Assembly (NCBI GenBank): GCA_023818895.1
Contig: JAMWCX010000001.1
Coordinates: 75,539-139,538 of the forward strand
Source: Candidatus Omnitrophota bacterium
GTDB taxonomy: Bacteria; Omnitrophota; Gorgyraeia; 2-01-FULL-45-10
DNA: 64,000 bases
Direction of reading: 5' to 3'
Shown: positions 34,120 through 64,000 of the stretch, one piece after another
Numbering within the stretch: position 1 is the first letter of the stretch
Layout: every line of letters begins with the position of its first letter
Translations under genes and position numbers: made by a program
The notes under the pieces: model-generated
The model's database searches: none
The model's input: only the letters and a program-made list of their open reading frames with translations
Told to the model about the DNA's origin: nothing

Positions 34120-34641
34120 TCAATCCTTTAGTGTAACCAATAACTCTTTTTTAAACCCCCTGATCATCCTGTAGATAACAAAGTAACCAAGTCTTCCTAT
34201 CGGGTTGGTGAACTGGTCAAATAATATGTGCTGCGTTAGACCTATGGCAGCCGCTTTCCAGTAATCGGAAAGAGACAGAGCGAATATCGCCAGCCAAAGG
34301 ATCAGGACGAGTTCGTATGAATGCAAAATGACATATAGCTTTTTTATGCGTATTTCCTCGCAAGCGTTGTATATATATTTTATGCGTATCGTGAAAGGAT
34401 GGCTGGTGTAATAATCGATGAAATGGTCGGCGTCTACAAGGACGCCTGCCGCCAAGGAGATGGCGGCACAGCCGATGGATTTGAAGTAAATCCCGACCGC
34501 AATGCTTATGATGCCCGATGCGGCGATATGTGCTAGAGGTTTCAAGAGGGTATTTTCCTTTATCCCTGGAGGTTTATTATGGAATCGAAAGTGCCGAACG
34601 AATTTTGCTCTCTTTCGGCGTTCTGAGAGTCGAGAACCCAT
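34120..34641 (-). CDS. YdjM/DUF457-like membrane-bound metal-dependent hydrolase. The start is uncertain: the 5' end overlaps the parA-like gene in another frame.
   Basis: A hydrophobic protein with LAHIAASGII...VLVDADHFIDYY, resembling the His/Asp motifs of DUF457. Confidence 0.35.
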   Translation of the reverse strand: MGSRLSERRKRAKFVRHFRFHNKPPGIKENTLLKPLAHIAASGIISIAVGIYFKSIGCAAISLAAGVLVDADHFIDYYTSHPFTIRIKYIYNACEEIRIKKLYVILHSYELVLILWLAIFALSLSDYWKAAAIGLTQHILFDQFTNPIGRLGYFVIYRMIRGFKKELLVTLKD

Positions 34642-35693
34642 TCGCCGTCAACAACGAATTTATATTTATACCTACCGGGCGCAAGAGTAAACCTTTTTTC
34701 CCATTTTCCGTTTTCGAGCCTCGAAAGGCGGCTTTCATCGTTTATCTTCCAGTGGTTAAACTCGCCTACCACAAATATATTCTTTGCGTTAGGCGCATCT
34801 ATATTGAAGGAGACCTCTCTTAAAATAGGGCTTGCCGGATCCATTGTCGAGCGAGGAGCATTGAGTGTTTGGGATACGGATTCTGTGCTTGATTGGGCTT
34901 GGCTTAAGGCCTGTTCGAACTCCAGCGCACCGTCCGCCCTCAATAATTCCCGCGCGAGGGCCAGATAGTCTTCGGCGCCTATCGAATCTTTATTGAAGCT
35001 GACAACACAGACGCCTTTTGCCGCTGCCTTCTTAAGATCTACGTTAAGTCTGATTATCGTGGAGAGCATCTGATTTCTGAAGAAAGTGCTTATTTCATCA
35101 TACATTGCCTGGGAGTATTTTGTCCTTTTATCGAACAACGTGGCAAGCGCGTTGACCTGAGGGGCGTGGTTTATTTTTATTTTGATTAGCTCAAGCATCC
35201 CCAGAAGCTTCCCAACGCCCATAAGCGAAAACGCGCTCATGTCTATGGGGACTAATATTTGATCGGCGGCTCTAAGGGCATTGAACGTCAGGAAGCCGAG
35301 GCTGGGAGGACAGTCGATAACTATATACTGGTAAGCCAGCTGGCTTGAGGCGAGCACCTGGTGGAGTTTCGATACGGCGTCCTCTTTGTCCTTGAGTTCC
35401 TGCTCGAGCGTGCTCAGCAGTATGTTTGAAGCAACGATGTCAAGATTATCGGATACCTTGACTATGCATTCGTTTATCGTTCTGGTCTTTTCAGGATTCT
35501 CAGTAAGGATATTGTAGGTGGAACGGTCCATGCTCTGGTTGGTTACTCCGAGGCCGAAGCTTGCATGGGCTTGGGGATCGAGGTCTATTATTAGAGTCTT
35601 TTTGCCTAAGCTGGCGAGAGCCCCTGCCAGGTTTATGGTTGTGGTGGTCTTGCCGCAACCACCCTTTTGATTAGCTACAGCTATTTTTTTCAT
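34560..35693 (-). CDS. ParA/MinD-family P-loop ATPase fused to a C-terminal CBM48/AMPK-beta-type glycogen-binding domain. The start is taken at MKKIAVANQKGG.
   Basis: A deviant Walker A (KGGCGKTT) with ParA-like sequence across the first ~250 aa. The C-terminus (FNIDAPNAKNIFVVGEFNHWKI...LAPGRYKYKFVVDGEWVLD) matches the AMPK-beta glycogen-binding / CBM48 consensus. Confidence 0.75.
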   Translation of the reverse strand: MKKIAVANQKGGCGKTTTTINLAGALASLGKKTLIIDLDPQAHASFGLGVTNQSMDRSTYNILTENPEKTRTINECIVKVSDNLDIVASNILLSTLEQELKDKEDAVSKLHQVLASSQLAYQYIVIDCPPSLGFLTFNALRAADQILVPIDMSAFSLMGVGKLLGMLELIKIKINHAPQVNALATLFDKRTKYSQAMYDEISTFFRNQMLSTIIRLNVDLKKAAAKGVCVVSFNKDSIGAEDYLALARELLRADGALEFEQALSQAQSSTESVSQTLNAPRSTMDPASPILREVSFNIDAPNAKNIFVVGEFNHWKINDESRLSRLENGKWEKRFTLAPGRYKYKFVVDGEWVLDSQNAEREQNSFGTFDSIINLQG

Positions 35694-35740
35694 GACCCCT
35701 CCTTTTCTCCAGTTAAAAATATATACCATCAAACACTATT

Positions 35741-47085: not shown

Positions 47086-50000
47086 TTATGCGAATTCCTG
47101 TACCTTGTAGAGCCGCCTGAGGTTCTCGTAGACGGGGATCCTCTCTGCCTTGGGCAGGAAGATGAAGACGTTGCGGCAGTCCTTTAGGGCCTCGGCCCTC
47201 ACAGCTGGGTTGTCGAGAGCGTCTTCTGCAGCCAAAACGTCTTTTAGGCCTAGCTTCAATGCCATCGCGAGCATTTCCGTGAGGTACATATAGCAGCTCT
47301 CGTCCAGCCCGCTTGCGTCGACGCCGGCGAGAAATGCCTTTTCGTCATTGCGCAAGTATTCAAATTCCCGCGAGATGACGGTGTCGCGAGATGCGAGAAC
47401 GACTACCCGCGCCGCAGGGGTAATCTCTCTTGCCTTTGCTATTTCTGATAGTAGATCTTTGTCTTCGCGGTCAATGAATGTTATGCCGCGGTCATTACAG
47501 AAATTGCGGATCATGATTATGTGCTGATTAAGGTCGGCATATTGTGGTCCGTTTCCACGCATATAGCCTTTTATCCAGCTTGTGCCGAGAGCTAGTATTA
47601 CAGGCTCTTTCTGGTTCGCGGCGCGGATGAGCTTGACGATATCGGAGAACTTTACCGCTTCTATACGCGCAAGTTCCGCTCTCGGCTGTTCGTCTGGGCT
47701 GTAGCCTGACGTATCACTGGGTTGTAAAAAAGATCCTGTCTTGTTCTCATCTTCTGTCAGGATAGTTTTCGAATCACTAATTTTTGCGTTTACTTCAGAG
47801 GCCGCTTGCAGGTGCCAGAGCTTGGTTTTTCTTCCGTCGATTTCGGCATTAACCTTAACCCATATACCCCGGAACGGGTAAAGATAATTCTGCTTAAGAT
47901 TGCTGTTGGGAATTGGTGTTCGGAGCTTACCCGTATATCTATCTTCCAACTCCTCAACGGTAGATGCGTAAAAATATTCGAAACCCGCTTTTTGGGCCAA
48001 TCTGACAATATGCATTATAGCCCCTCTATTCCACTCGTAAAATCTTTGGCGTATTTCAAGAGGTTGGATGTTGCGGAATCCCAGGCTTGGCTGGACGTCA
48101 TATATGAGTAGGGCGGGTTTTTTGTTGTGTTCAGTTATCCGCAGGCGTATTACGCCGAAAAGGCCGCTGGAAGGCACATAGTCGTCAGATGCCATCATGT
48201 CGAGCGTGGCAAGTTCGGGATAGGCCTTTTTGGTATCTTCCGTAGGTTCGATCGCGAATTCCTGCGGGATTTCATCGTATTCGATATACGCGCCAACCTT
48301 TTGCCCTTTGACAGTCCATGTGAAGTAAGGATCCTTTTCCAGTAGTTCCAGTAGTCTGGCGAACTCCGCTGATTTCCGCAGAGAATTACCCGTCTTAGGC
48401 AATAGTAAATGTTGTGTGCCGGCATCGTAGTGGGGCGGCGCGAAAGAGCGAAATAAATTCTCAAGAGACTCATCATCGATGGATGTCAGTTTCTTGTTGA
48501 CAAGGCCGAAGAGCACCTGGGGCATTGTAACAATCTTTGAAAAATGCCTCTCCAAGGCATATAGCGCTCCGCCGAGACATCCTGAGTCCGGTTCGGGAGA
48601 TTTTAATATTTCACCGTTCGCAAGATAGCGCACCTCTTCTCCGCCGAAAGGCGCCAGCGACGTAACGCCGAGTTTTTTCATAGTGGCTATGACAGGTTGC
48701 CAGCGCCTCTGGTCATATATACTGTCTGGCAGCGCTGCCTCCGTTGCCGGAATACCCCACCGCGGAACACTTGGTATATCGACGATTATAGCGCTCGTCG
48801 ATATATTCTTTAAAACATTGTAATTGCCGCCCAGTATGAATACCACGCCTTTTTCGGCCGATATGGTTTTTCTTAAGTTTGACAGGTATATTTCCGCCTC
48901 TTTCTGATTTGCCATAACGATATCGTTTTTTTCACTGGCAGTAAAAATCTGCCCCGGATGCACCAAAAATGAAACCCGTCCACCTTGCTGCTTAATGGCC
49001 TTGCGTATAGCATCGGCGTGTTTGTCGATGTCCGCCCATTGGATAATGCGAGCCTCGGCCATCTGATACTTACTTACGATCTGATCGGCGCGCGCAAGAT
49101 AGCCGGTTGACCGTAGGTAATCCAGGCCGCGACTATGGTCCGACTCGGGTATCCTGTCGGTCCATTCATAGTCTTCCTCTTCACCATCATAGGGAACAAG
49201 ATCGATCTCTCCCCATTTGACTGTGTGGACCAGATAATGGAATGGGATATTTTCGTTTTTTCTGTACATACCAACAAGATATGCCTCATATCCAAGCTTA
49301 TTTAATATATATGTGAGCATGGCTGAGTTGGCTAGACATGATTTCAAATCCATCGACTTGACTGCGTTTTTGATCTCGTTTATGATGTCATTGCTGTTGT
49401 CTGTGTTAAGTCCATCTCTGGAACCTGAAGACGTATTTGATATTTCAGATACATATGTGGTCAGAGATAGGGTGGATATATTATCATCCCTATCCCTTGC
49501 TCCATCTTTTATAGCGCTGCTTATCTTCCCGCGGATTCTCACCTCATTGGAATCTTTGAGGATGGGCTCTAATTCGGAGATATCCTTTATGGCTATCCAA
49601 TTTTGGTGTTTATCATCGCCGGCTTTTTCATAGCTTATTTCTACGGATTCGAATATGCCGGCCCTGGCGCATCTAAGGAAAAATGCGGCATGTGTCTCAT
49701 CAGGTATGCCATAATATTCGATAAATCTATTTGGGCCGGCCTGCGATGCAAGCCATCTTACTACCTCGACACCCAATCCCCGCCGCGTATCTTTCTTGTC
49801 AAATATGCGCAGGTTCTTAAATAGCGTTGTCTCGCCATTCACGTAAAACGCGTATAATGTGCCAACAAGCTTTTCGTTCTCTTCGAGAAAATACCACGAT
49901 CTGTCAAAAGCTCGCAGCCTCAACCTCTTCTCCTCGGATATCTCTACATCTTCTTCTGGAAGCGTTGTCAGGGGAGCGCGATCAGTCTCTTCTGTCCATA

Positions 50001-53000
50001 TGCGGAAACATCTTTTCAATGCCTTTATTATTTCTCTAGCCCCTTCCCTCTCTCCTAGGTACTGTGTTAGGCGTGGAATGCCCGGTGTATTCATGGAGAG
50101 CCATTCGAGCTGCATTACTATTTCAGCTATAATTTGGTTATTCATTTGGTAAAGCGGGTCATCTTCGTGCTGGAGAGAGTCGAATATCCGGTTGGCTATC
50201 ACTTTGATAAGGCCGGGGTTTTGTTCACACGCCCTAACAAGGCCGTTTGTTATAAGCGCGTGATTGACGCAGCAAGGCATATAATGAGTATCATGAGCTA
50301 GGTTGACGATGACTTCAAGCGCGGTGCATATAGCTTCTTTTTGGCTTTCAGTGTTTAGTGAGGCGAGATACGCAGCCAATTCGCTATAACTGCGCTCGGC
50401 CATTTGTTTAATGTCGTTACGGGAAAGCGCGTCCCGCGTGCCTTCGGTATGGTCCATGCCTCCCAAAAGCGGGTGCTCATCGTCGCGCTTAAGTTTCTCT
50501 TCGTAAGAAAGCCAGGTAGTGGCAGAGGTTATTTCCTTGATTTTTTGCCCTTCCTGCCAGTGTTCGATTATCCCGTCCCGTCGCATAGTGGCGAATATGG
50601 GATTGGGTGCGCCGTGGATGTTCGCCGTCCTCCCTTTTTCGTACAATATTACGACATCCGCCTCTTTGCCGGAGGTTTGCTCTCTTACGCCGATCCTTCC
50701 CTCATCAAGATATGACACCAGATCTTGCGGTAGATCACAGGCCGTTATCTTGCCGTTCGAAACCTTTATCCTCCCAATATGTTTGCCATCCTGTGTAAAT
50801 GGATCAAAATCGGCCTTCATCACAGCATATTCGACAGAGTCCGAATTTTCCACCTCCGGCTTCTTATCGCCGGTTTGTTTTATGAGCTTTCTTGCGATAT
50901 GGACAAGTGCCGGATTAACGATGCCTGATATTCCGGAGTGGGACGCACCGTTCCTCCAGGCCGATTTGATGAGCCAGTTCAATACCGTCTCGCCTATTCC
51001 CTTGCCCCTGTCATTTACCCGGATCGTTGTTATGACATTCGTGCCCTTGTAATAATTGACCAGCCCAGCCTTCCTGCCGTCGGCTACAATCTCATATAAC
51101 TTGATAGGGCCTCCTCGATGAGATGGTATTTTGATTTTTATGTCCATAGCGCCTGTCTTTATATTCCGCAGTTTGATGACATTCCACAGGATACCGTAAT
51201 GATACTCTTCCCATATTGTTCCAAAAGCATCTGTTACGGTTCTTATTCGGCCATTTTTATCCTTTTCAATATACTCAAATGGCGCATGACCGTTATTTTG
51301 CCTCGCCACCCATTCAGGTGCTGCCATGTCATCTGGTATGCCTGGACCATCTCCTTCGCCTGACGGCGGATAATCATATGCCTGTATTTTTTTATCGGCT
51401 TTTAAGCCATCAAAATAAGCCAGTCTAGAGGCGATGGCTTTCTCTATTTTCTCTTTGTCCTCGGTCAGCTTGTATTCGAGGATCATTTGGAGTTCCTTAT
51501 CCATATCCATGTCACGAGGGGCTGTCTTTCTTATCTCATCGCGAAGATCCGCAAGCGTCTGGGCATCTTCGGGCCTTGCCAGGCCAATGTATTCTATAAG
51601 TAAATAGGTGTCTTTTTCGTGTATCGTCTCATCGAAGATCCTGACCGGTGTAAGATAGTTTTCTGTTAATACCGCAATTCGGCTTTTATAGGCATCAGAA
51701 GGAACTGTCGATATTTTCGACAGGCGTATCCATATTTTAGCAAGGGCTTCCATCGTGGCGAGCACATCCTCGCTTTTTTCTAATTTACCGATGTTAGATG
51801 TTATGACCTGCTCCATCTTGACAAGTTGTATCTCGGACGCCTTATCAATGTTTCGTATAAAGTTTGTAATCGAAAGCATGATATGTTGCTGTATTTCGGG
51901 TGAGAAGTTTTTGGCGCCATGGCCATCGTCAGCGGGCACGTCCCCTACAGAGAGGCTGTTGTGGTCCATGCCGCCAAGATACCAGTGCTCCTCATCCCGC
52001 TTTAGCATCTCATCACGGGTCAGATTTAAAAGACCGGTCTCTTCGGTCTTCCTGGCCAATATTATGTCAAGCTGCTGAGTCAGGTCAAACCTGCCTATAT
52101 ACTCTTTTGTCCTGTGTTCTATGCCGTAAAAGGCTCGAGTTCTCCTGATAGATGAGGTCACAAAGTCCGATTTTTCATCCGCTCTCATCTTCTTCCAGTT
52201 TTCCGTGGCCTCTTTGCTGTAATAGTCGGGATTAAAGGCTATATACAAAATCCCGCCTCTTTTCAGTGTCTTGGCCGCTGCTGAAATGAGCGCCTCCGGG
52301 TCTTTAACATAAGCCATGCCGGAGGTGATTATCACGGCGTCAAAATGGTTTTCCCACTCGGCGGGAAACTCCGGATTTGCGTTTAGGTCCTGCACGATGC
52401 GTTGGGTAAGTTTCGCGTTGACATTAAGCTCGTCCCTGTTGAGCCCTATTCCGATGATCTCCGACGCGTTTACGGATTGCGGCACATATGTAAAAGCGCC
52501 GCTCATGAGATCAAGGACCCTTGCCCCTCGTGGCAGGTAGTCTTTGAGATAGTCTTCTATGTATGTGGTGGCCGCATCTTCCAGATAGGGTATCGCGCTT
52601 TGCGTGTCAATTAAACTGAAAGATGATTTAACATAATGGAGGATAAGGCTGGTCCTCGTGCCTATTGCCGGCACATTTTCCATATGGAAATTTTCGGCCC
52701 CCAGACAGTGTTCTATAGTCTTGAGGCCGGCGCCCCCTCCCCATAGTCCCGCGTGAAATGCCTTCGTTCTAGATTCTGTGTTATCGTTTCTTGAGGCGGT
52801 ATCGTAGATGTCTACGGTGGTATTTTTTGCCAAAGAATCTATTTTTATGTCGAGGAAGATCGGCTTGCTGAAATCGGCTCTGTTGCCGTGTGAAAACGCG
52901 TTTTTGATGGCCTCCGCGATTGGTGTCATGCTTTTGCCATCGGTGAACGCGTCATCGAGTTTTCCGGAGAGCTTCATGATGGCATCATAAAGATCATCAT

Positions 53001-56000
53001 AAGCGGATTCTTTTTCGGCGAGATAAGCCAGATTCAAAGCCACTGCGTTACCGTTTTTAATGGCCTCGATAATTTTATCCACATTTCCTATGTTTATGTC
53101 AATGACGTTCTTGCCCGTAACACTTTTTACGGAAGCGGCGGTAAAACTGCCAGATATAGATGATGACGGCTCGGCATCTCTTATTCCTGACCAGCCAGTG
53201 GGCTTTGCTTCCTGGGGCCTTTCGAGATCGCGGGCTATGGCGGGATCGGTGGTCTGTTGGGCCGCTGAATCCTGCTTTGTTGCTGAAGGCCTGAGCTCAA
53301 GGTTGCCGTTTTTCCTTACGATGAGGAGCTTGTCCCGACCGGCGGCGCCTATAGCCGCAAGCATTCTTGTCGGTATCATCAAGCGATTGCCCTTCTGGAG
53401 GTTTGCTATAAATTCGCTGTTCGATCCTATGACCGTAAGCATTTCGTTATTTTTGGTATCTGTAATAGACTTGCCGAGCAATGGTTTTATTTTCTGTAAG
53501 AATTGACCGGCGGGATAGACAATGATGCATCTATCGTAACTTTTGCAGAAAAGATAAAAAGGTGCCTTGAATTGTGAGGCGAGGCGGGCGGGTATGGCAA
53601 CTCTGTTATTACTGTCGATAGTTACTTCTGCCAGAATTTCATCCTGGTTATCGTTAAGTTGCGCCTTATCGTTCTCAATGGAGTTTTTCTTGTCTTTATG
53701 TGATAAGTCGGTGTTTTGGTTTTTGGAAGAAGCATTATTTATTATCACCCCGAGTATCGAAACTAAAACCAGCCATTTTGTCGATACTGGCATCGTTCTT
53801 GATGCTGCGCTGGTGTGTCGGTAGGGTTTCTCTGGTTGTCTGAGCTCAGGCGGATCTTCTGCTTGGACAGGATAGAGTAGTTGGCCGTTATGGATCATGA
53901 GTCTGCTGCCATGGGAATTGTTTGCTTTTATGAGCATAACGTTTTCTATCATTCCAAGGTTTTGCAGAGCGCGGTAAATATTTTTTACGGTTCTTAGCCA
54001 ATGGGGACTGAAGATGCCGCTGTTATCCTCTAAGGCATAGCTCCCTTCAAGAATATATATCCTTAATCCCATTTTCTCGGTAAAGTTTGCAGCGATAGAA
54101 TCTTGTATTTCCTGTATAGTGCAAGCTGGCGTGAAATGGGCAAGATAGTGTTTTCCGTTTTGAGGATCGTCTATTGCTAAACCAGCGCATGTGCCGACGT
54201 TGTCGATGTATAAAGGGATATCGCGGGAGTTGATTTTGTAGCTCATCATCGGAACATATACCGCATTCGTGGTGACGTGGCATATCTCCATTGCTTCTGC
54301 TCTTCTCGAGAGGTCTTCCGATAAATTCCTGACCTCTATCGGCGTTATGGCGTAGTAGCGACAGTCCTTCATGGTATCGAGCAGGCCGAATGGTAGTAGT
54401 ATCGCTATGGCGAGTATGATGCCGCTCGCAAAGGCGGCTGGCAACTTCAGCCATTTCAGATGTTGTGCGCGCTTATCACGCTCTCCCCTCTTTTTCTCAT
54501 ACGGCGTGGTTTCATTTTCTCCCTGCACAAAGAAATGGATGAGTTCGTTTTTTGTTCTGTGATGCCTAAATCCCGATATCGGCTCCTTGAATAGCCTGAA
54601 GCCCTCATGCCCCTGAAGTATGAATATGCCGCCGGTTTTTATCTCTTTGAGTTTATCCACGAGTGCATATTCGACATCGTCCGGAGCACCGCCCATAAAG
54701 TAGTAGACAGCATCATACCTACCCAGATCTTCTTTGAGAAAATCCCCCTGCTTTATAGTGACGCTGCCCGGTTTGATGAGCCCTTCTTTTATAAGTTCAT
54801 CAAGCATCTCTTTGGCATATGAGACCTTAGACGGGTCCCACTCGACCATCGTGACCCTGAACCCGAAGACCGACGCCATGAAAAACCCGAAGCTTCCTAG
54901 GCCGCCCCCGAGATCTACTATATGTGCGCCTTCTTTGAGGCCCCATTCCCGCACCGTCGGTCCAACTATGTATTCACTCGAATCCATGAATATGCCGAAC
55001 GCGTTTTTCGGATCCCTGGAGACATACGGATGTTTCTGTCTGTAGTGTTCCTTGAAATCTATGAATGCCCTCATCCTCAAATATTGGGCGCGGCTCAGGT
55101 TCTCCTTTATGCTGTTTATATACTTTTCTCTGAATAGTTCTTCTCTTCTTATTCGGAGCTTTTCGTAGGGTATCGTGCCATCGAGTTCGGCTGAGATATT
55201 AAGGGCGTGATGAGCCCATGACGTGAGGGCAAAGAAAGCCACACTTTGAGGCATGCTCATGAATATCGGTGTGGCCATAACAACAGCATTTAGTAAAGCG
55301 ATAACCGTTATTTTATACCAGGGCGGCGCCTGCGGCATATGCTTGGCCCTGAAATAATGCGAGGCAACGAAAAGCGACCATGTTATGGCCGATGCCCAAA
55401 GACTTCCGGTGATTGGTGTCAAAATAATGGCTAATTCCCAGAATAACGCCTGCTCTATGAAAACCTGGGACCAGCTCTTTATCTTTTGTGGCATTGGGAA
55501 GGATTCGTCTATCTTGTCGATGAGCCAGGCCAATAGCGGTATCTGTCCCCATGCCTCTCCCTCACTAAAATAGTCGGTTTTTGCCTCATCTACATGTGAT
55601 ATAATATTGTCAATATCTTCGTGCAATCCTTTCAGATATGAGCATTTACCGAAATGCTTAACGAACCATTCTATTGTTTGAACAGGTTCGTAAATGGCAA
55701 GATGATTATCGAGAGTGATACCGTCTCGAAGGATTTTCCTGATAGCATCTGATGCTGCCTTAGACTGAGCCAGTTCTTCTAAAAGTTTTGAACGTGTCTC
55801 GCCCTTAAAGAGCTCTAAGATAACAGTTTCTGCCTGCCGGAATGTTGTTGGATTGAATCGTTGGACGAATGCTGTGAGCATTTGTTCCAGCCGAGCGCGG
55901 TTGAACTCATTTTTAGGTGGTGCCTTTTCATAGGCGTATATCTCTGATAAGAGAAACTCAAAATTGGCATTCATAACATCAGTTTGAAACCTGCTTGCAT

Positions 56001-57621
56001 CATCACGTAGTGCCTGGAGCATTCTTAGTAGTTCTACTATTATATTGTTTAGGGCAATATAACGCGAAGCGACAGCTGTCCCGGGAATACAATATTTTTT
56101 GAAATCCGATGCCAGTAGGGAATTTAGCCTTCTTAGAGTTGATTCCCGCGATAAGAGTACTTTCCAGAAGCTTTCCAAGTCCACCGCCCATCCGATTTTT
56201 TTGACCTCGTTAAGATATTTTCTTATATCGGCGTATGTATCCTCAAATATGCGTTCAAGGATTTTAATGGTAGGAATGGCGTGATGCGTCTCAGGGTCAT
56301 TTTCATCATTGAGGTAATCATCGACGTCATCATTGGCGTCATCATCGGGTGGCTGGGTAATATGTGGCGTCCCCGGCCCCCAGAGGAGGTTCTCGCGATC
56401 GTCTTTTTCGTATTCCTTCTCTTTTACATTTGCTGATGCGTTGATGTCGGACCTTTGAGCAGGAGGCTTTGTCTTAGAATGACCCAAAAACTTGTCATCG
56501 ACTTTAGATATGTTTTTGTCATCCTTATCGGCTAAGTTGTGGGTTTTACTCATCGCGGTGTCTTCGTTTGTTTGTATTAAGGGCATGACCTTTACATAGA
56601 CATTTGTGCCGTCACCGAGCGGTATCGTCATATCGGCATCTGTGTTTTTGTCCTCAAGATAATATTTGTAATAATAAGCCTTTACTCCGTTTCTATATAG
56701 TGGCAGATAATACGCCTTCTCTTCTTTGTTATAAAATAGTTCGTTTATCGCCAACCCTGCAAGGAGAGGATCGTTCTTGTTAGCGCGTTTTATATCTACT
56801 AAGGATATGTGGCGTTTTATTTCCGGGATAAGAGTATATTGAGATATACTATATTGTAGATATTTTCCTATCAGGATACTTATATCCCGAAAGACAGCTT
56901 TCTCGCGGAATTCTTTATCGTCAGCGTACGCTATGGCAATAAATTCATTCTCGGCGAATATCTCAGAGGAGTCGTTTTTTTTAGGGATGCGAAGTTGCGT
57001 CTTTGTACCGTCAGCAAAAGGTCGCCAGCTTATCGAGCCGCCTAATCTGCGCATTGTCAGAGATGCGTCAATAACTCCGGTACCATTGCCTCCAAAATGT
57101 TTCTTGAGGTGCTGGGACGACCTTTCCCTTTTTCTGTAAGCTGGAACACCTTCCTTTAGAAGCTCTATTGGCTTGCCATTATCGATTACATTTATTATCA
57201 GTTCGTCAGCGTCATAGTACGCCTCAATTGTGACTACACCTACAAATGATACAATCCCCTTATTGCGCATCTCTTCGAATTTATCAATTATAGAATCATA
57301 CGAGTTTTTCATTATTTCCATGAGCACATCTTCCATTAGGGGGTTTGTGGTAAGGCGCTGATATAGCGGGTTTTTCTCTACTTTTGTCTTAAAGTCCGTT
57401 TTTGAACGCAAAAATGACGATTCGATTTCCGGGTTGAAATTTATCCGAATCTCCGTCCTGGCACCATTTGCAACAGATAGTATAGGGCTAAATCTGCTGG
57501 GAGGGGCAAGGTGGTATGTTGCCTCATTGGTCGCAAAACTTAACTCGTTTAATATCAGGGCAAGAATCAGGAATACAGATATTATTTTTAAAGGCAGGCT
57601 TAGTTTGTAATAACTTAACAT
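47086..57621 (-). CDS. Giant multidomain exported/membrane protein (3,511 aa). Recognised modules in order: signal peptide, GHKL-like, transmembrane cluster, SAM methyltransferase, CheD-like, MraZ/AbrB-like, second SAM methyltransferase, a KRDEEH-LGGMDH repeat plus GNAT-like fold (twice), transglutaminase-like core, and a C-terminal region.
   Basis: A single uninterrupted 10,536-nt ORF with no internal stops and consistent codon usage. Motifs read directly from the translation include: INVIDNGKPI...HFGGNGTGV (HATPase_c-like); HIVDLGGGLGSFGFF...DAVYYF and RVLDLMSGAFTYV...GGILYIAF (class I methyltransferases); VGTCAGLAIDDPQNGKHYLAHF (CheD-like); NRVAIPARL.../GNRLMIPTRM... (MraZ double hairpin); GLVNYYKGTNVITTIRVNDRGKGIGETVLNWL and LVGTLYAFYVNGETTL...RRGLGVEVVRWL (GNAT-like); and C-x24-H-x17-D (KSCLANSAML...FHYLVHT...D). 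Confidence 0.7.
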   Translation of the reverse strand: MLSYYKLSLPLKIISVFLILALILNELSFATNEATYHLAPPSRFSPILSVANGARTEIRINFNPEIESSFLRSKTDFKTKVEKNPLYQRLTTNPLMEDVLMEIMKNSYDSIIDKFEEMRNKGIVSFVGVVTIEAYYDADELIINVIDNGKPIELLKEGVPAYRKRERSSQHLKKHFGGNGTGVIDASLTMRRLGGSISWRPFADGTKTQLRIPKKNDSSEIFAENEFIAIAYADDKEFREKAVFRDISILIGKYLQYSISQYTLIPEIKRHISLVDIKRANKNDPLLAGLAINELFYNKEEKAYYLPLYRNGVKAYYYKYYLEDKNTDADMTIPLGDGTNVYVKVMPLIQTNEDTAMSKTHNLADKDDKNISKVDDKFLGHSKTKPPAQRSDINASANVKEKEYEKDDRENLLWGPGTPHITQPPDDDANDDVDDYLNDENDPETHHAIPTIKILERIFEDTYADIRKYLNEVKKIGWAVDLESFWKVLLSRESTLRRLNSLLASDFKKYCIPGTAVASRYIALNNIIVELLRMLQALRDDASRFQTDVMNANFEFLLSEIYAYEKAPPKNEFNRARLEQMLTAFVQRFNPTTFRQAETVILELFKGETRSKLLEELAQSKAASDAIRKILRDGITLDNHLAIYEPVQTIEWFVKHFGKCSYLKGLHEDIDNIISHVDEAKTDYFSEGEAWGQIPLLAWLIDKIDESFPMPQKIKSWSQVFIEQALFWELAIILTPITGSLWASAITWSLFVASHYFRAKHMPQAPPWYKITVIALLNAVVMATPIFMSMPQSVAFFALTSWAHHALNISAELDGTIPYEKLRIRREELFREKYINSIKENLSRAQYLRMRAFIDFKEHYRQKHPYVSRDPKNAFGIFMDSSEYIVGPTVREWGLKEGAHIVDLGGGLGSFGFFMASVFGFRVTMVEWDPSKVSYAKEMLDELIKEGLIKPGSVTIKQGDFLKEDLGRYDAVYYFMGGAPDDVEYALVDKLKEIKTGGIFILQGHEGFRLFKEPISGFRHHRTKNELIHFFVQGENETTPYEKKRGERDKRAQHLKWLKLPAAFASGIILAIAILLPFGLLDTMKDCRYYAITPIEVRNLSEDLSRRAEAMEICHVTTNAVYVPMMSYKINSRDIPLYIDNVGTCAGLAIDDPQNGKHYLAHFTPACTIQEIQDSIAANFTEKMGLRIYILEGSYALEDNSGIFSPHWLRTVKNIYRALQNLGMIENVMLIKANNSHGSRLMIHNGQLLYPVQAEDPPELRQPEKPYRHTSAASRTMPVSTKWLVLVSILGVIINNASSKNQNTDLSHKDKKNSIENDKAQLNDNQDEILAEVTIDSNNRVAIPARLASQFKAPFYLFCKSYDRCIIVYPAGQFLQKIKPLLGKSITDTKNNEMLTVIGSNSEFIANLQKGNRLMIPTRMLAAIGAAGRDKLLIVRKNGNLELRPSATKQDSAAQQTTDPAIARDLERPQEAKPTGWSGIRDAEPSSSISGSFTAASVKSVTGKNVIDINIGNVDKIIEAIKNGNAVALNLAYLAEKESAYDDLYDAIMKLSGKLDDAFTDGKSMTPIAEAIKNAFSHGNRADFSKPIFLDIKIDSLAKNTTVDIYDTASRNDNTESRTKAFHAGLWGGGAGLKTIEHCLGAENFHMENVPAIGTRTSLILHYVKSSFSLIDTQSAIPYLEDAATTYIEDYLKDYLPRGARVLDLMSGAFTYVPQSVNASEIIGIGLNRDELNVNAKLTQRIVQDLNANPEFPAEWENHFDAVIITSGMAYVKDPEALISAAAKTLKRGGILYIAFNPDYYSKEATENWKKMRADEKSDFVTSSIRRTRAFYGIEHRTKEYIGRFDLTQQLDIILARKTEETGLLNLTRDEMLKRDEEHWYLGGMDHNSLSVGDVPADDGHGAKNFSPEIQQHIMLSITNFIRNIDKASEIQLVKMEQVITSNIGKLEKSEDVLATMEALAKIWIRLSKISTVPSDAYKSRIAVLTENYLTPVRIFDETIHEKDTYLLIEYIGLARPEDAQTLADLRDEIRKTAPRDMDMDKELQMILEYKLTEDKEKIEKAIASRLAYFDGLKADKKIQAYDYPPSGEGDGPGIPDDMAAPEWVARQNNGHAPFEYIEKDKNGRIRTVTDAFGTIWEEYHYGILWNVIKLRNIKTGAMDIKIKIPSHRGGPIKLYEIVADGRKAGLVNYYKGTNVITTIRVNDRGKGIGETVLNWLIKSAWRNGASHSGISGIVNPALVHIARKLIKQTGDKKPEVENSDSVEYAVMKADFDPFTQDGKHIGRIKVSNGKITACDLPQDLVSYLDEGRIGVREQTSGKEADVVILYEKGRTANIHGAPNPIFATMRRDGIIEHWQEGQKIKEITSATTWLSYEEKLKRDDEHPLLGGMDHTEGTRDALSRNDIKQMAERSYSELAAYLASLNTESQKEAICTALEVIVNLAHDTHYMPCCVNHALITNGLVRACEQNPGLIKVIANRIFDSLQHEDDPLYQMNNQIIAEIVMQLEWLSMNTPGIPRLTQYLGEREGAREIIKALKRCFRIWTEETDRAPLTTLPEEDVEISEEKRLRLRAFDRSWYFLEENEKLVGTLYAFYVNGETTLFKNLRIFDKKDTRRGLGVEVVRWLASQAGPNRFIEYYGIPDETHAAFFLRCARAGIFESVEISYEKAGDDKHQNWIAIKDISELEPILKDSNEVRIRGKISSAIKDGARDRDDNISTLSLTTYVSEISNTSSGSRDGLNTDNSNDIINEIKNAVKSMDLKSCLANSAMLTYILNKLGYEAYLVGMYRKNENIPFHYLVHTVKWGEIDLVPYDGEEEDYEWTDRIPESDHSRGLDYLRSTGYLARADQIVSKYQMAEARIIQWADIDKHADAIRKAIKQQGGRVSFLVHPGQIFTASEKNDIVMANQKEAEIYLSNLRKTISAEKGVVFILGGNYNVLKNISTSAIIVDIPSVPRWGIPATEAALPDSIYDQRRWQPVIATMKKLGVTSLAPFGGEEVRYLANGEILKSPEPDSGCLGGALYALERHFSKIVTMPQVLFGLVNKKLTSIDDESLENLFRSFAPPHYDAGTQHLLLPKTGNSLRKSAEFARLLELLEKDPYFTWTVKGQKVGAYIEYDEIPQEFAIEPTEDTKKAYPELATLDMMASDDYVPSSGLFGVIRLRITEHNKKPALLIYDVQPSLGFRNIQPLEIRQRFYEWNRGAIMHIVRLAQKAGFEYFYASTVEELEDRYTGKLRTPIPNSNLKQNYLYPFRGIWVKVNAEIDGRKTKLWHLQAASEVNAKISDSKTILTEDENKTGSFLQPSDTSGYSPDEQPRAELARIEAVKFSDIVKLIRAANQKEPVILALGTSWIKGYMRGNGPQYADLNQHIIMIRNFCNDRGITFIDREDKDLLSEIAKAREITPAARVVVLASRDTVISREFEYLRNDEKAFLAGVDASGLDESCYMYLTEMLAMALKLGLKDVLAAEDALDNPAVRAEALKDCRNVFIFLPKAERIPVYENLRRLYKVQEFA

Positions 57622-57632
57622 AGATTGAATAA

Positions 57633-57660
57633 ATTATATCACACAATCGTGTTAAGTCAA
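57633..57660 (-). promoter_or_regulatory. Near-consensus sigma-70 promoter for the giant gene (minus-strand read: TTGACT, a 16-nt spacer, then TATAAT)
   Basis: On the minus strand, revcomp(57655-57660) is TTGACT and revcomp(57633-57638) is TATAAT. The -10 hexamer lies only 11 nt upstream of the ATG at 57621, implying a very short or leaderless 5' UTR. Confidence 0.45.
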
Positions 57661-59406: not shown

Positions 59407-59805
59407 CTATTTTATAATATTTATCGTTTGGCCGGAGGACTCCATCTCTTTACGAAACGCCTCGTTTGCTGCCTTGAAGATCGCCGGATTTGATTGCCAC
59501 CCCTTGTATTTCGGGCGAGAGTTTGCCCACTGCTCGAAAATGGCCCACCTGAATTGGGCAAGCGTAACTTCTTCGCCTGACATACCGATCTTGTTTGTAT
59601 TATGGTCGGTAACGGTCTTCTTTATTTCGCCGCCCCTGTAATTGATTATGGGCGTCACCTTTCCTGTGAGAGCATTATATTTCGACGGTATCTTTATCCC
59701 GCCGATCTCGTAATTTACCGTGCGTATGAATACAAGGCGATATAAGAAAAACGTGGCTACAAGCGCCACTGCGCTCAAGAGAGTCATCTTCAATGTCCTG
59801 TTCAT
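59407..59805 (-). CDS. Hypothetical protein with an N-terminal transmembrane anchor
   Basis: 132-aa ORF with one N-terminal hydrophobic helix. No family was recognised. Confidence 0.35.
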   Translation of the reverse strand: MNRTLKMTLLSAVALVATFFLYRLVFIRTVNYEIGGIKIPSKYNALTGKVTPIINYRGGEIKKTVTDHNTNKIGMSGEEVTLAQFRWAIFEQWANSRPKYKGWQSNPAIFKAANEAFRKEMESSGQTINIIK

Positions 59806-59819
59806 GCTCTTCCCCTTTC

Positions 59820-60248
59820 TTAATCCACTATTTTTCCCTCTACGTCTATGACATTTTCGTCCTTTTTATTGATATTCTTACGGCTATACGCGAAGAAAGT
59901 TATGTTAGCCTTGGGAATCATTATCAGGTTAAGGAGAAAGCTTATGAAACTGAAAAAAAGAGCCGCGAAGAACGCGCTCCAAAAGCTTTCTATGACGAAT
60001 CCCTTTACGGCCCTCGAAGCAAGATATAACATGAACGCGTTTATTAGGAGAGTAAACATACCGAGAGACATTATATTTATGGGCAGCGTTAATAGAAGCA
60101 GCGCAGGGCGCACGAAAGCATTAAGAAGACCGATTAAGACAGAAGCTACCACTAAAGATTCCCATCCTGACGCCCTTATGCCCGGCACAATATTGACAAC
60201 AAAAAAGAGTGCTATTATATTTATCGTTAATTTTATTATGAAACCCAT
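59820..60248 (-). CDS. DUF360 / phage-holin-4-like small membrane protein (YvlD-like)
   Basis: The pattern NIVPGIRASGWESLVVASVLIGLLNAFVRPALLLLTLPINIMSLGMFTLLINAFML matches the conserved PF04020 core. Confidence 0.5.
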   Translation of the reverse strand: MGFIIKLTINIIALFFVVNIVPGIRASGWESLVVASVLIGLLNAFVRPALLLLTLPINIMSLGMFTLLINAFMLYLASRAVKGFVIESFWSAFFAALFFSFISFLLNLIMIPKANITFFAYSRKNINKKDENVIDVEGKIVD

Positions 60249-62842: not shown

Positions 62843-64000
62843 TTAATCGGGGAATGGGATTATTTTCTCGACGGAAAAATTGTGTTCGAAAGCAGTATTG
62901 GCTGCTAAATGAGGGGCCTTGAGCTGCGCCTCTTGGCCGCCTTCGGAAATTCTTCTGCGCCTGTAATCTTCCAGCGCCCCATCTCTAAGGACTTTCAGCA
63001 CAGGGCTTTTTAATAGCTGGGCGTTTCTTACATAGTCGTATTCCCTGTCCTGCCTTCTAAGTTCGCTTTCCATCGATACCAAAAAACGTTTTTTATCCTC
63101 TTCGGATAAGTCAGTATTCGCGAATTCCACAAGGAAAGCGTAGCGCGGGCCTTCCTCGGGGTGCGCAACCGCGCAAAAAAATTTAAGTGAGATATTCTCC
63201 ATTTTTACGACGTTGCTAAGTGCCGCATTGACATGTGATTCATAAAGTTTTTCACCTGCCAGGGATGAGGCGCCCTTGCCTTTTTGGACGAACTCTATCA
63301 TCGGCGTCTTATTGTAGAAGTCGTATACTTTTATTATGTCATCGATGTTATATCTGTAGAGTCCGCCCGCTGTGGTTACTACCAGAAAATATTCTTTGTC
63401 CTTCTCGAGTTCATTGCATAGTAAAACCCTTTTGCGAGCGCTGTTTTCGTCTTCGCGCGGTATGAATTCATAAAAATTGGTCTGTATGGCCAGCACTCCG
63501 CCGGCGTCGGTGTCATTGATCGGTATCGAGCTTCTGGCCTCGGTGGAAACACAACCCATATCCCTGGTGGGAACTTTGCCAAAATATGACTCCAATTCTT
63601 TCAGATATATCCCCATGACGCCGCCCTTCCAGCACTCGATTAGTTTAAGATTCGGCCAAATATATCTGGGCATAAGCATGCCGTGTTCTTTTATTATATT
63701 TCGAAGTTTGTCAGCTCTACGCTTGTCAGCTTTAAGTCCTTTTTCTATAATCCTGCGTATCCGCGAGGGGATATCAAAGTCACCACAGACAGTCCCTTTT
63801 TCTATATCCTCTATTATAAGATTTTTCCATTTGTCGATCTTGCGGCATAATATGGTTATTGCGTTAGGGTTTAGGGTAGCGATATCGGTTATATCGGCCT
63901 GTATGGCAAGGCGTAGTATCGTGTAGTGGCGGGCTTCATACGACTCGATTTCGAATACCTCATACGGAATAGCGTAAAGTTTTTTTACCGGCCCCGGCAG
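62843..64000 (-). CDS. GH3-family (acyl acid-amido synthetase-like adenylating enzyme) protein; its 5' end lies beyond the window
   Basis: The reading frame is open to the window edge. The C-terminal half (YNIDDIIKVYDFYNKTPMIEFVQKGK...) and the upstream part (LPGPVKKLYAIPYEVFEIESYEARHYTILRLAIQADITDIATLNPNAITIL) resemble PF03321 GH3 proteins. Confidence 0.55.
   Translation of the reverse strand: MPGPVKKLYAIPYEVFEIESYEARHYTILRLAIQADITDIATLNPNAITILCRKIDKWKNLIIEDIEKGTVCGDFDIPSRIRRIIEKGLKADKRRADKLRNIIKEHGMLMPRYIWPNLKLIECWKGGVMGIYLKELESYFGKVPTRDMGCVSTEARSSIPINDTDAGGVLAIQTNFYEFIPREDENSARKRVLLCNELEKDKEYFLVVTTAGGLYRYNIDDIIKVYDFYNKTPMIEFVQKGKGASSLAGEKLYESHVNAALSNVVKMENISLKFFCAVAHPEEGPRYAFLVEFANTDLSEEDKKRFLVSMESELRRQDREYDYVRNAQLLKSPVLKVLRDGALEDYRRRRISEGGQEAQLKAPHLAANTAFEHNFSVEKIIPFPD

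What the first reader, a model, noticed from the sequence alone, without database searches (positions are those of the whole stretch)
47086..57621. Single 10.5-kb 'giant gene' encoding a 3,511-aa exported multi-enzyme protein of novel architecture
One uninterrupted ORF occupies 16% of the window. It begins with a classic signal peptide (MLSYYKLSLPLKIISVFLILALILNELSFA|TNE) and strings together at least eight recognisable catalytic or regulatory folds, separated by transmembrane segments. These are a GHKL ATPase-like module, two SAM methyltransferases, a CheD-like deamidase motif, an MraZ-like module, two GNAT-like modules and a transglutaminase-like core. I cannot map this combination to any characterised protein family, toxin system or secretion substrate. 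Giant genes of this size have been reported as rare features of certain uncultivated lineages, where they are hypothesised to mediate cell-cell or host interaction; that ecological role is inference here. The stacked tailoring-enzyme folds (methyl-, acyl-, deamidase and transglutaminase-type) suggest a surface-anchored protein that covalently modifies a polymer or partner-cell envelope.
Basis: partly seen in the sequence, partly recalled or inferred. Interest (0 to 1): 0.9.

Follow-up and report, generated by a model that had tools for sequence, protein, structure and literature searches.

The report
Modular giant protein of Omnitrophota
The 10.5-kb gene is real and encodes one 3,511-residue protein of an uncultivated Omnitrophota bacterium. 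It is an expanded member of a large, undescribed protein family that keeps a fixed export-type leader, a fixed N-terminal module and a fixed C-terminal domain while swapping the enzymes carried in between.

Summary
The ORF (47086-57621, minus strand, 3,511 aa) is real, looks coding throughout, has its own promoter-like site and lies among housekeeping genes of a Candidatus Omnitrophota MAG. Two SAM methyltransferases pass Pfam thresholds. One or two GHKL ATPase-like modules and a MraZ/AbrB-like module are sub-threshold. The CheD-like, GNAT-like and transglutaminase-like calls rest on motifs alone.

The architecture is not unique. The N-terminal leader, a ~120-aa N-module and a ~197-aa C-terminal domain (CTD) define a family of at least 473 sequence clusters. 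All named members come from Omnitrophota-type MAGs. The CTD ends at the last residue in 128 of 133 cases. The insert between N-module and CTD ranges from 12 to 5,272 aa; here it is 2,963 aa.

Relatives at the same chromosomal locus carry different, rearranged inserts. A 13-residue peptide, WGPGTPHITQPPD, punctuates linkers in this and related proteins.

Function is unproven. Most likely this is an exported or membrane-tethered carrier of modifying enzymes. It is a new variant of the known Omnitrophota very-long multi-enzyme proteins.

The parts
57633..57660 (-). Promoter-like site TTGACT-16-TATAAT with an extended -10 TG (11 of 12 matches). It ends 11 nt before the ATG and no Shine-Dalgarno sequence is visible.
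   Evidence: consensus match only
47086..57621 (-). Giant ORF, 3,511 codons plus stop
57532..57621 (-). aa 1-30: family-conserved Sec-type leader MLSYYKLSLPLKIISVFLILALILNELSFA. The 'L(N/S)(D/E)xSFA' end is shared with P0001-P0003, P0009 and P0043.
57481..57513 (-). aa 37-47: HLAPPSRFSPI, the family 'L(A/S)PP...' motif just after the leader
56977..57339 (-). aa 95-215: GHKL (HATPase_c-like) module 1, inserted between leader and N-module as in a subgroup of relatives. ExxxNxxD and GGNGTG motifs are present.
   Evidence: E=2.3e-4, below cutoff; 11 homologous segments
56572..56937 (-). aa 229-350: family N-module (helices followed by a 5-stranded sheet in the model of the minimal relative P0055)
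56344..56382 (-). aa 414-426: punctuation peptide WGPGTPHITQPPD in a polar linker
55522..56283 (-). aa 447-700: module of unknown function (helical by eye, not modelled), shared with P0001 and P0003
55198..55458 (-). aa 722-808: cluster of 3-4 hydrophobic helices carrying E..., FxxxH and HxxxN motifs. The CPBP/Rce1-like reading is motif-only and unverified.
54523..55158 (-). aa 822-1033: SAM methyltransferase 1 (Pfam core aa 881-1002)
54379..54435 (-). aa 1063-1081: hydrophobic helix preceded by 5 K/R residues
53797..54378 (-). aa 1082-1275: module with a GTC-x6-DP-x8-AH motif (CheD-like by motif only), flanked by two hydrophobic helices, shared with P0001
53740..53796 (-). aa 1276-1294: last hydrophobic helix
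53263..53640 (-). aa 1328-1453: MraZ/SpoVT-AbrB-like double module
   Evidence: below cutoffs
52702..52920 (-). aa 1568-1640: GHKL module 2 (HATPase_c_2-like)
52132..52551 (-). aa 1691-1830: SAM methyltransferase 2
51961..52023 (-). aa 1867-1887: internal repeat motif LTRDEMLKRDEEHWYLGGMDH (copy 1)
   Evidence: E=8e-6 between the copies
50512..51906 (-). aa 1906-2370: M10 (unknown function, shared with P0001) followed by M11 (GNAT-like hint, shared with P0002)
50449..50511 (-). aa 2371-2391: internal repeat motif LSYEEKLKRDDEHPLLGGMDH (copy 2)
49522..50424 (-). aa 2400-2700: orphan region with a weak GNAT hint at aa 2555-2629
   Evidence: E=0.074; no homologues
49132..49389 (-). aa 2745-2830: Cys...His...Asp pattern resembling a transglutaminase/papain-like core (motif only)
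   Evidence: Pfam negative
47785..48363 (-). aa 3087-3279: module M14, shared with P0001 and P0003 (53-60% identity), no family match
47089..47682 (-). aa 3314-3511: family C-terminal domain (alpha/beta three-layer fold) ending ...LYKVQEFA at the last residue

Best explanation
**Shown**
- The gene encodes a single modular protein of a Candidatus Omnitrophota bacterium.
- It belongs to a large, previously undescribed family with three constant parts:
  - a Sec-type N-terminal leader followed by an L(A/S)PP motif;
  - a ~120-aa N-module;
  - a ~197-aa alpha/beta C-terminal domain that always ends the protein.
- Between N-module and CTD the family accepts cargo of 12 to more than 5,000 residues.
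- In this gene the cargo is 2,963 aa. It holds two SAM methyltransferases, a second GHKL ATPase-like module, a MraZ/AbrB-like module, a membrane-embedded unit and several dark modules.

**Inferred mechanism**
- The leader takes the N-terminus through Sec.
- The hydrophobic helices at aa 722-808, 1063-1081 and 1276-1294 tether the chain in the cytoplasmic membrane.
- The constant N-module and CTD act together as a sorting, anchoring or delivery scaffold.
- The cargo enzymes covalently modify proteins or envelope/host molecules.
- The linker peptide WGPGTPHITQPPD is a recognition site, for processing or docking, that separates cargo units.

The locus evolves by gain, loss and rearrangement of modules, much faster than its neighbours. 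That fits a host- or prey-interaction role in these host-dependent bacteria.
For: **Single real gene**
- establish the ORF.
- It has its own promoter-like site.
- NCBI protein accessions run ..199 (CarB) to ..202 (DUF1846), leaving room for CarA plus one protein.

**Family**
- An exhaustive profile search with the CTD gave 473 clusters at E<=1e-3 and 252 at E<=1e-10.
- The CTD ends exactly at the C-terminus in 128 of 133 cases.
- The N-module occurs in about 70 of 153 representatives, usually at aa 50-200.
- 90 of 118 full-length members have the leader.
- The N-module-to-CTD gap runs from 12 aa (P0055, a complete 373-aa Omnitrophota protein on a 75-kb contig) to 5,272 aa.

**Structure models**
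- CTD model: pLDDT 94.8.
- Minimal core P0055: pLDDT 88.7, pTM 0.80. This suggests the two constant parts pack together.

**Cargo**
- Cargo is diverse across 30 members.

**Same locus, different content**
- P0002 and P0001 sit between DUF1846 and carA/carB-purF-guaA-purL.
- Their neighbours are 74-89% identical to the window's. Shared modules of the giant are only ~50-56% identical and are in a different order.

**Punctuation motif**
- One copy here; five in L009 (an ORF that also ends in the CTD); two each in L010, L011 and P0006.
- Flanks are unalignable and codons differ synonymously.
- No Pfam domain spans a motif.

**Host lineage and literature**
-.
- bioRxiv 10.1101/2023.11.21.568195 and 10.64898/2026.06.07.730766 describe Omnitrophota long multi-enzyme signal-peptide-plus-TM proteins rich in methyltransferase, HATPase and GNAT domains.
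Against: - No signal-peptide or topology predictor was run. The positive-inside count is ambiguous.
- Most family members have no internal hydrophobic helix. If the CTD must sit on one side of the membrane, the topology of this member is unresolved.
- ATP-, SAM- and acetyl-CoA-dependent cargo would be inactive in the periplasm. So either the bulk is cytoplasmic or it acts in another cell.
- No conserved partner genes (secretion system, protease) lie next to family members.
- There is no expression or proteomic evidence.
Confidence: 0.5

Rival explanations
1. It is an inner-membrane-tethered, cytoplasm-facing enzyme hub. The leader is an uncleaved anchor, or only the first ~700 residues are exported. 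The C-terminal ~2,200 residues (MraZ-like, GHKL2, MTase2, GNAT-like, CTD) work in the cell's own cytoplasm as a regulatory or modification scaffold.
For: - Cargo is cofactor-dependent.
- Five K/R residues lie immediately before helix 1063-1081, which places MTase1 inside.
- There is no hydrophobic segment after aa 1295.
- Family cargo includes radical SAM, kinase, PPDK_N and HTH domains.
Against: - The leader has the short hydrophobic core, positive n-region and small-x-small end of a cleaved Sec signal.
- Most family members have the leader but no other hydrophobic helix. Their cargo and CTD should then be exported, so the CTD would sit on different sides of the membrane in different members.
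Confidence: 0.28
2. It is a secreted multi-effector polyprotein. The leader, N-module and CTD deliver the chain out of the cell and into a host or prey cell. There it is cut at the linker motifs into separate ATP/SAM/acetyl-CoA-using enzymes. This would be analogous to MARTX toxins.
For: - Constant ends with a variable middle.
- Cytoplasm-type cargo behind an export leader.
- A repeated inter-module peptide under peptide-level selection.
- A fast-evolving locus.
- The host-dependent or predatory lifestyle proposed for Omnitrophota.
- The open question of cleavage points was raised.
Against: - This member has only one copy of the motif.
- No protease domain is verified: the TGase-like and CPBP-like calls are motif-only.
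- No secretion genes are adjacent.
- Internal hydrophobic helices would trap the chain in the producer's membrane.
- Motif variants such as HIPQ and SATQ exist.
Confidence: 0.17
3. It is an assembly or annotation artefact: several ordinary genes fused by a misjoin or by missed stop codons.
For: The source is a MAG, and no reads were available to check.
Against: - Uniform coding signal throughout and no internal repeats.
- The contig is 732,676 bp.
- The family leader and N-module sit at the very start and the family CTD at the very end, as in more than 100 relatives.
- Syntenic relatives of 4,541 and 5,638 aa come from independent assemblies.
- The NCBI accession numbering leaves room for one protein only.
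Confidence: 0.03
4. It is a member of an already characterised system: a polymorphic toxin (Rhs/CDI), a MARTX toxin, a T9SS cargo protein, an adhesin, an NRPS/PKS or an anti-phage defence protein.
For: Large size and modularity. One PADLOC hit (mad2, E=1.4e-14) covers the MTase1 region only.
Against: - No Rhs, RTX, C80, T9SS-CTD, adhesin-repeat, condensation or KS domains at E<=1.
- The CTD model is alpha/beta, not a beta-sandwich.
- The PADLOC hit is generic methyltransferase similarity.
Confidence: 0.02

Closest known systems
Omnitrophota very long multi-enzyme proteins (class 1 / Pfam 'Module 1' of Nielsen & Lui 2026, bioRxiv 10.64898/2026.06.07.730766; 'Archaeovorins' of West-Roberts et al. 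2023, bioRxiv 10.1101/2023.11.21.568195)
   Same: - Same phylum.
- One polypeptide strings together many unrelated enzyme domains, dominated by methyltransferase, HATPase and GNAT content.
- Signal peptide plus some TM helices.
- Large dark regions and unknown function.
   Different: - Only 3.5 kaa, against catalogue thresholds of >=10 kaa and >30 kaa.
- No SecA_DEAD, C39/S8 peptidase, glycosyl-transferase/hydrolase or NUDIX content.
- Only about 5-6 hydrophobic helices.
- The constant leader/N-module/CTD frame and the punctuation peptide are not mentioned in either paper.
Type IX secretion cargo proteins (Sec signal, variable passenger, conserved C-terminal sorting domain)
   Same: The logic of the architecture: an N-terminal Sec leader, a strictly C-terminal conserved domain, and highly variable passengers from a few hundred to several thousand residues.
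   Different: - The CTD here is ~197 aa and alpha/beta, not an ~80-100-aa beta-sandwich.
- No TIGR04183/TIGR04131 match.
- There is an additional constant N-module.
- Passengers are cytoplasm-type enzymes.
- The phylum is different.
MARTX toxins
   Same: Conserved N- and C-terminal regions flank an exchangeable cassette of effector enzymes. Relatives differ by effector content. Processing between effectors is part of the mechanism.
   Different: - No RTX-type repeats, no C80 cysteine protease domain and no T1SS neighbours.
- Processing here is only hypothesised from a linker peptide.
Polymorphic toxin systems (Rhs, CDI)
   Same: Constant delivery parts combined with variable enzymatic parts; rapid evolution at a fixed locus.
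   Different: - The variable part is internal, not C-terminal.
- Many enzymes per chain.
- No immunity gene downstream; carA follows directly.
- No Rhs/YD or haemagglutinin repeats.

Membership tests
Leader / N-module / cargo / CTD family (defined here) | ~197-aa alpha/beta domain ending at the last residue with ...Y-x-V/A-Q-x-F/S-A | tested here: met
   aa 3314-3511. It is 47-60% identical to P0001-P0004. The profile finds 473 clusters. The domain is terminal in 128 of 133 cases.
Leader / N-module / cargo / CTD family (defined here) | ~120-aa N-module near the N-terminus | tested here: met
   aa 229-350. BLASTP gives 50-56% identity to P0001 and P0002 over this stretch; P0003 aligns at 26% over a longer span. 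The HMM finds it in about 70 of 153 representatives.
Leader / N-module / cargo / CTD family (defined here) | N-terminal hydrophobic leader ending small-x-small, followed by an L(A/S)PP motif | tested here: met
   MLSYY...LNELSFA then HLAPPSRF. Present in 90 of 118 full-length members. Cleavage itself was not tested.
Archaeovorin-type giant proteins (West-Roberts 2023) | Gene longer than 90 kb / protein longer than 30,000 aa | tested here: not met
   10,536 bp / 3,511 aa
Archaeovorin-type giant proteins (West-Roberts 2023) | Divergent SecA DEAD / preprotein-binding domains | tested here: not met
   No such Pfam match at E<=1
Archaeovorin-type giant proteins (West-Roberts 2023) | Glycosyl transferases/hydrolases, peptidases and NUDIX together with methyltransferases | tested here: not met
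   Only methyltransferases were detected
Omnitrophota long multi-enzyme class 1 / Module 1 (Nielsen & Lui 2026) | Length of at least 10,000 aa | tested here: not met
   3,511 aa
Omnitrophota long multi-enzyme class 1 / Module 1 (Nielsen & Lui 2026) | Many distinct Pfams with none dominating; methyltransferase + HATPase + GNAT content | tested here: inconclusive
   Methyltransferase passes the cutoff. HATPase_c (22 bits) and GNAT (13.8 bits) are below cutoff.
Omnitrophota long multi-enzyme class 1 / Module 1 (Nielsen & Lui 2026) | Omnitrophota host | tested here: met
   Flanking proteins are exact matches to 'Candidatus Omnitrophica/Omnitrophota bacterium' MAG proteins MCM8790196-204
T9SS cargo | C-terminal beta-sandwich CTD (TIGR04183 / TIGR04131) | tested here: not met
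   No NCBIfam match at E<=1. The model is alpha/beta.
MARTX | RTX-type repeats, C80 autoprocessing protease, T1SS genes | tested here: not met
   No Pfam matches. Neighbours are DUF1846 and carA.
Class I SAM-dependent methyltransferases (two modules) | Pfam methyltransferase model above gathering score; motif I GxGxG-like | tested here: met
   PF13847 28.7 bits (cutoff 27), PF13489 27.8 (27), PF08241 25.1 (21.2). Motifs VDLGGGLG and LDLMSGAF are present.
GHKL ATPase | HATPase_c model above gathering score; N-box, G1 and G2 motifs | tested here: inconclusive
   22 bits against a cutoff of 26.4, over model positions 5-110 of 111. ExxxNxxD and GGNGTG are present; G1 reads DNGKP.
CheD deamidase | PF03975 match or fold; Cys...His catalytic pair | tested here: inconclusive
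   The motif GTCAGLAIDDPQNGKHYLAHF is present and conserved in P0001. There is no Pfam or PDB sequence match. The fold was not modelled.
Transglutaminase-like / papain-like core | PF01841 match or fold; Cys-His-Asp triad | tested here: inconclusive
   The C...H...D pattern at aa 2758-2812 can be read in the sequence. Pfam was negative at E<=1. No homologues were found. The fold was not modelled.
GNAT acetyltransferase (two modules) | PF00583-clan match; R/Q-x-x-G-x-G/A motif | tested here: inconclusive
   PF00583 E=0.074 at aa 2555-2629. PDB 3f8k E=0.26 for aa ~2177-2245. Motifs RGKGIGE and RRGLGVE are present.

The most novel reading that the evidence does not exclude
The leader/N-module/CTD family is a dedicated delivery frame of host-dependent Omnitrophota. 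It exports polyproteins of cytoplasm-type enzymes. WGPGTPHITQPPD is the site where a protease, still unidentified, cuts the chain into separate effectors that act inside a host or prey cell. If so, this would give the first concrete candidate cleavage point for Omnitrophota long proteins, and a new secretion-substrate class.
Probability: 0.17. Interest if true: 0.85.

Novelty: new variant of a known kind. Interest (0 to 1): 0.58.

Why it matters
Very long multi-enzyme proteins of Omnitrophota are known only as a catalogue of sizes and Pfam hits. Both papers I read leave open how these proteins are sorted, and the 2023 preprint asks whether they are cut into pieces.

This gene links the phenomenon to a tractable family:
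- Members as short as 373 aa contain only the constant parts.
- The insertion site between those parts is well defined.
- A conserved linker peptide can be searched for in metaproteomes as intact or cleaved.
- A syntenic locus lets cargo turnover be followed between related genomes.

Together these make sorting, processing and evolution of the proteins directly testable.

Tried and rejected
**Searches that returned nothing useful**
- A homologue search with aa 2090-3300 returned nothing, because only the 8,000 most word-sharing candidates are scored. A CTD-profile search hit the same cap and gave only 6 short fragments. Neither says anything about absence.
- Pfam on tiles of the dark modules and on their homologues found nothing.
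- PDB sequence-profile searches were negative for the CTD, M6, M14, M11 and the TM cluster.
- AFDB libraries were unavailable.

It was replaced by natural short members.
- The exact-sequence look-up of the giant protein failed.
- The look-up of the encoding contig of the DUF1846 protein also failed.

**Readings considered and dropped**
- CheY-like receiver for the CTD: no acidic pocket or phospho-acceptor Asp in the conserved columns.
- PEP-CTERM, LPXTG or GlyGly-CTERM sorting signals: the C-terminus is not hydrophobic.
- Self-cleaving H-x-T/S motif for the punctuation peptide: the variants HIPQ and SATQ exist, and no folded context is conserved.
- Anti-phage defence protein: the only PADLOC hit is a generic methyltransferase match.

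**Not resolved**
- Topology from positive-inside counts is ambiguous.
- No conserved neighbouring genes were found across four family loci.
Full report

A single ORF runs from 47086 to 57621 on the minus strand, with an ATG start and 3,511 codons. At the window's base composition the chance of 3,511 codons without a stop is about 1e-81. Each of seven 500-codon tiles scores best in this frame under the codon usage of the neighbouring housekeeping genes. GC content is uniform with the surroundings. There are no direct or inverted DNA repeats of 25 nt or more inside the ORF.

A near-consensus promoter-like site (TTGACT-16-TATAAT with an upstream TG) ends 11 nt before the ATG. No Shine-Dalgarno sequence is visible. 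A second such site precedes carA, downstream.

**2. Which organism, and what surrounds the gene?**

The neighbours on the same strand are ordinary: DUF1846 upstream, then carA, carB, purF, guaA and purL downstream. The rest of the window is ordinary chromosome, with one tRNA.

Several flanking proteins are exact matches to proteins of a 'Candidatus Omnitrophica/Omnitrophota bacterium' MAG on a 732,676-bp contig:
- PurL, MCM8790196
- PurF, ..198
- CarB, ..199
- DUF1846, ..202
- a 132-aa protein, ..203
- a holin-family protein..204

Only two accession numbers fall between CarB and DUF1846. Those would be CarA and one further protein. I infer that the public annotation also has the giant as one CDS. 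The exact sequence itself was not retrievable.

**3. Which domains can be verified?**

|---|---|---|---|
| SAM methyltransferase 1 | ~881-1002 | Passes Pfam gathering score | 4 |
| SAM methyltransferase 2 | ~1691-1830 | Passes Pfam gathering score | 4 |
| GHKL ATPase-like | 99-215 | HATPase_c E=2.3e-4, 22 bits vs 26.4 cutoff, almost full model; N-box and G2 motifs intact | 19 |
| Second GHKL-like | ~1568-1632 | HATPase_c_2 E=2e-3 | 19 |
| MraZ/AbrB-like | 1332-1423 | TIGR00242 E=3e-7, PF02381 E=5e-4, both below cutoff | 4, 5 |
| GNAT-like (two) | 2555-2629; ~2177-2245 | Hints only: PF00583 E=0.074; PDB 3f8k E=0.26 | 4, 61 |
| CheD-like | ~1140-1165 | Motif GTCAGLAIDDPQNGKHYLAHF only | 19, 55, 59 |
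| Transglutaminase-like | 2758-2812 | Cys...His...Asp pattern only | 112 |

For the last two rows, Pfam on this protein and on its homologues, and PDB sequence-profile searches, found nothing.

Hydrophobic helices occur only at the leader, at aa 722-808 (3-4 helices), at 1063-1081 and at 1276-1294. The last 2,200 residues have none.

**4. What is it? A member of a large family with constant ends.**

A first homology search returned only six proteins of 2,453-5,638 aa. The two that carry names are named Candidatus Omnitrophica. Mapping the similarities showed three things:
- a shared N-terminus;
- a shared last ~200 residues, at the extreme C-terminus in four of the six (P0001-P0004);
- internal modules shared piecemeal and in different order.

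A profile of the C-terminal ~197 residues was scored against 1.84 billion representative proteins:
- It found 473 clusters at E<=1e-3, 252 at E<=1e-10 and 75 at E<=1e-30, in proteins of 127 to 6,923 aa.
- In 128 of 133 full matches the domain ends at the very last residue, typically ...Y-x-V-Q-x-F-A.

A ~120-aa N-module (aa 229-350 here) is found in about 70 of the 153 listed proteins, normally right after the leader. Of 118 full-length CTD proteins, 90 have a hydrophobic N-terminal leader with a median net charge of +3 before it. Most continue with a small-aromatic-small triplet and an L(A/S)PP motif.

The distance between N-module and CTD varies continuously:
- 12 aa in P0055, a complete 373-aa Omnitrophota protein on a 75-kb contig;
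- 2,963 aa in this gene;
- 5,272 aa in P0001.

In this protein, and in a subgroup of relatives, a GHKL module is also inserted between leader and N-module.

Every relative that carries an organism name comes from a MAG labelled Candidatus Omnitrophota/Omnitrophica, or from one of three MAGs labelled 'uncultured Planctomycetia'.

**5. Structure of the constant parts.**

The natural minimal protein P0055 (leader + N-module + CTD) models at pLDDT 88.7 and pTM 0.80. That pTM is higher than I would expect for two independently placed domains. It suggests that the N-module (three helices plus a five-stranded sheet) packs against the CTD. I could not inspect the PAE.

**6. Cargo and evolution.**

A Pfam census of 30 family members gave:
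- HATPase_c in 9;
- methyltransferases in 3;
- single occurrences of GDE_C, pentapeptide repeats, CheR, PPDK_N, radical SAM, ILEI, GH77, TPR, GNAT, EcKL kinase, metallophosphatase, GH2 and protein kinase.

Other members carry ARMT1-like and PIG-L-like domains or HTH domains.

Two relatives lie at the same chromosomal position as the window's gene, between DUF1846 and carA/carB-purF-guaA-purL:
- P0002, 4,541 aa;
- P0001, 5,638 aa.

Their flanking housekeeping proteins are 74-89% identical to the window's. The shared modules of the giant are only about 50-56% identical. Most of the interior is not shared. Shared modules also differ in order, for example the methyltransferase-1 and CheD-like units, and M10 and M14.

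One of those genomes has a second, tandem family member that the window lacks. The locus is therefore a fast-changing cassette site in a conserved neighbourhood.

**7. A punctuation peptide.**

In the polar linker after the N-module the protein has WGPGTPHITQPPD (aa 414-426). The same 13 residues occur in P0004, twice in P0006, and as a variant in P0097. The flanks are otherwise unalignable.

A back-translated pattern scan of metagenome contigs found three contigs:
- one ORF with five copies spaced 171-502 aa apart, which also ends in the family CTD;
- one ORF with the family leader and two copies;
- one ORF with two copies.

Copies differ at synonymous codon positions, so the peptide rather than the DNA is conserved. 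Pfam domains lie between the copies and never across them. The motif string is absent from the searchable literature.

I read the peptide as a recognition site, for processing or docking, between cargo units. West-Roberts et al. state explicitly that cleavage points in Omnitrophota giant proteins are unknown.

**8. How it most likely works.**

Shown:
- single gene;
- family frame;
- variable cargo;
- membrane-type helices in one region;
- rapid module turnover.

Inferred:
- Sec export of the N-terminus through a cleaved leader;
- tethering by the internal helices;
- the N-module plus CTD as a constant sorting or anchoring scaffold;
- cargo enzymes carrying out methylation and ATP-dependent, and possibly acyl or deamidation, chemistry on proteins or envelope/host molecules.

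The main tension is that the cargo needs ATP, SAM and probably acetyl-CoA, which are absent outside the cytoplasm. Two readings resolve it:
- The bulk of this member stays on the cytoplasmic face. Five K/R residues before helix 1063-1081 place methyltransferase 1 inside.
- The family acts in another cell's cytoplasm.

Most relatives have a leader but no other hydrophobic helix, which favours export of cargo and CTD in general. The topology of this particular member is unresolved.

**9. Comparison with what is known.**

The closest known kind is the Omnitrophota very long multi-enzyme proteins. They share the phylum, the methyltransferase/HATPase/GNAT-rich content, the signal-peptide-plus-TM layout and the unknown function.

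This protein fails their size criteria. It also lacks the SecA-like, peptidase and carbohydrate-active domains of the Archaeovorin type.

By architectural logic it resembles T9SS cargo (Sec leader, variable passenger, terminal CTD) and MARTX toxins (constant ends, exchangeable effector cassette). It fails the defining features of both.

**10. Verdict.**

The domain list is about half verified. The 'unique architecture' is better described as one expansion state of a large, apparently undescribed Omnitrophota family. I rate it a new variant of a known kind, of moderate to good interest. The interest lies mainly in the constant frame and the punctuation peptide, which make sorting and processing of these proteins testable.

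Noticed in passing
window 57622-57660 (- strand): The promoter-like -10 hexamer ends only 11 nt before the ATG of the giant gene, and there is no Shine-Dalgarno sequence. The mRNA may be leaderless or nearly so.
   Followed up: partly
window 55198-55458 (aa 722-808): The hydrophobic cluster carries a conserved E (in xEQxLFW), FxxxH and HHxLN, also present in P0001. These are the catalytic motifs of CPBP/Rce1-type intramembrane proteases. Pfam and PDB sequence searches do not support the match.
   Followed up: partly
window 51961-52023 and 50449-50511 (aa 1867-1887, 2371-2391): A 21-residue motif, L(T/S)xxE(M/K)LKRD(E/D)EHxxLGGMDH, occurs twice. Each copy precedes a unit made of a module of unknown function followed by a GNAT-like module, which points to an old internal duplication. 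It was not found in the other family proteins examined.
   Followed up: partly
window 34560-35732 (- strand); also L002 25493-26653: A ParA/MinD-type ATPase is fused to a C-terminal glycogen-binding module (AMPK1_CBM/CBM48). The fusion is conserved next to the purine genes in a related genome, and a GlgC gene lies nearby at 28769-30028.
   Followed up: no
L001 23679-29732: The related genome has a second family member in tandem: 2,017 aa, mannitol dehydrogenase domains and a divergent CTD (E=3e-11). It sits between the giant gene and carA and is absent from the window.
   Followed up: partly
L009 3-8063 (Ga0272441_10002348): A family ORF of at least 2,687 aa carries five copies of GWGPGTPHITQPPD, a right-handed beta-helix/NosD-like N-terminal part and two methyltransferase-like modules.
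   Followed up: partly
window 59820-60248 and 59407-59805 (- strand): A Phage_holin_4_2-family membrane protein and a 132-aa protein with no family match lie upstream of DUF1846. The same order is conserved in L001.
   Followed up: no
window 62843-63679 (- strand): This 278-aa ORF matches only the middle and C-terminal GH3-family domains plus the last ~30 positions of the N-terminal domain. The gene may be truncated, frameshifted or mis-started.
   Followed up: no
L003, L005, L006, L007: Three MAGs that carry family members are titled 'uncultured Planctomycetia bacterium'. All other named carriers are Candidatus Omnitrophota. This is either a labelling issue or a wider distribution within the PVC group.
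   Followed up: no
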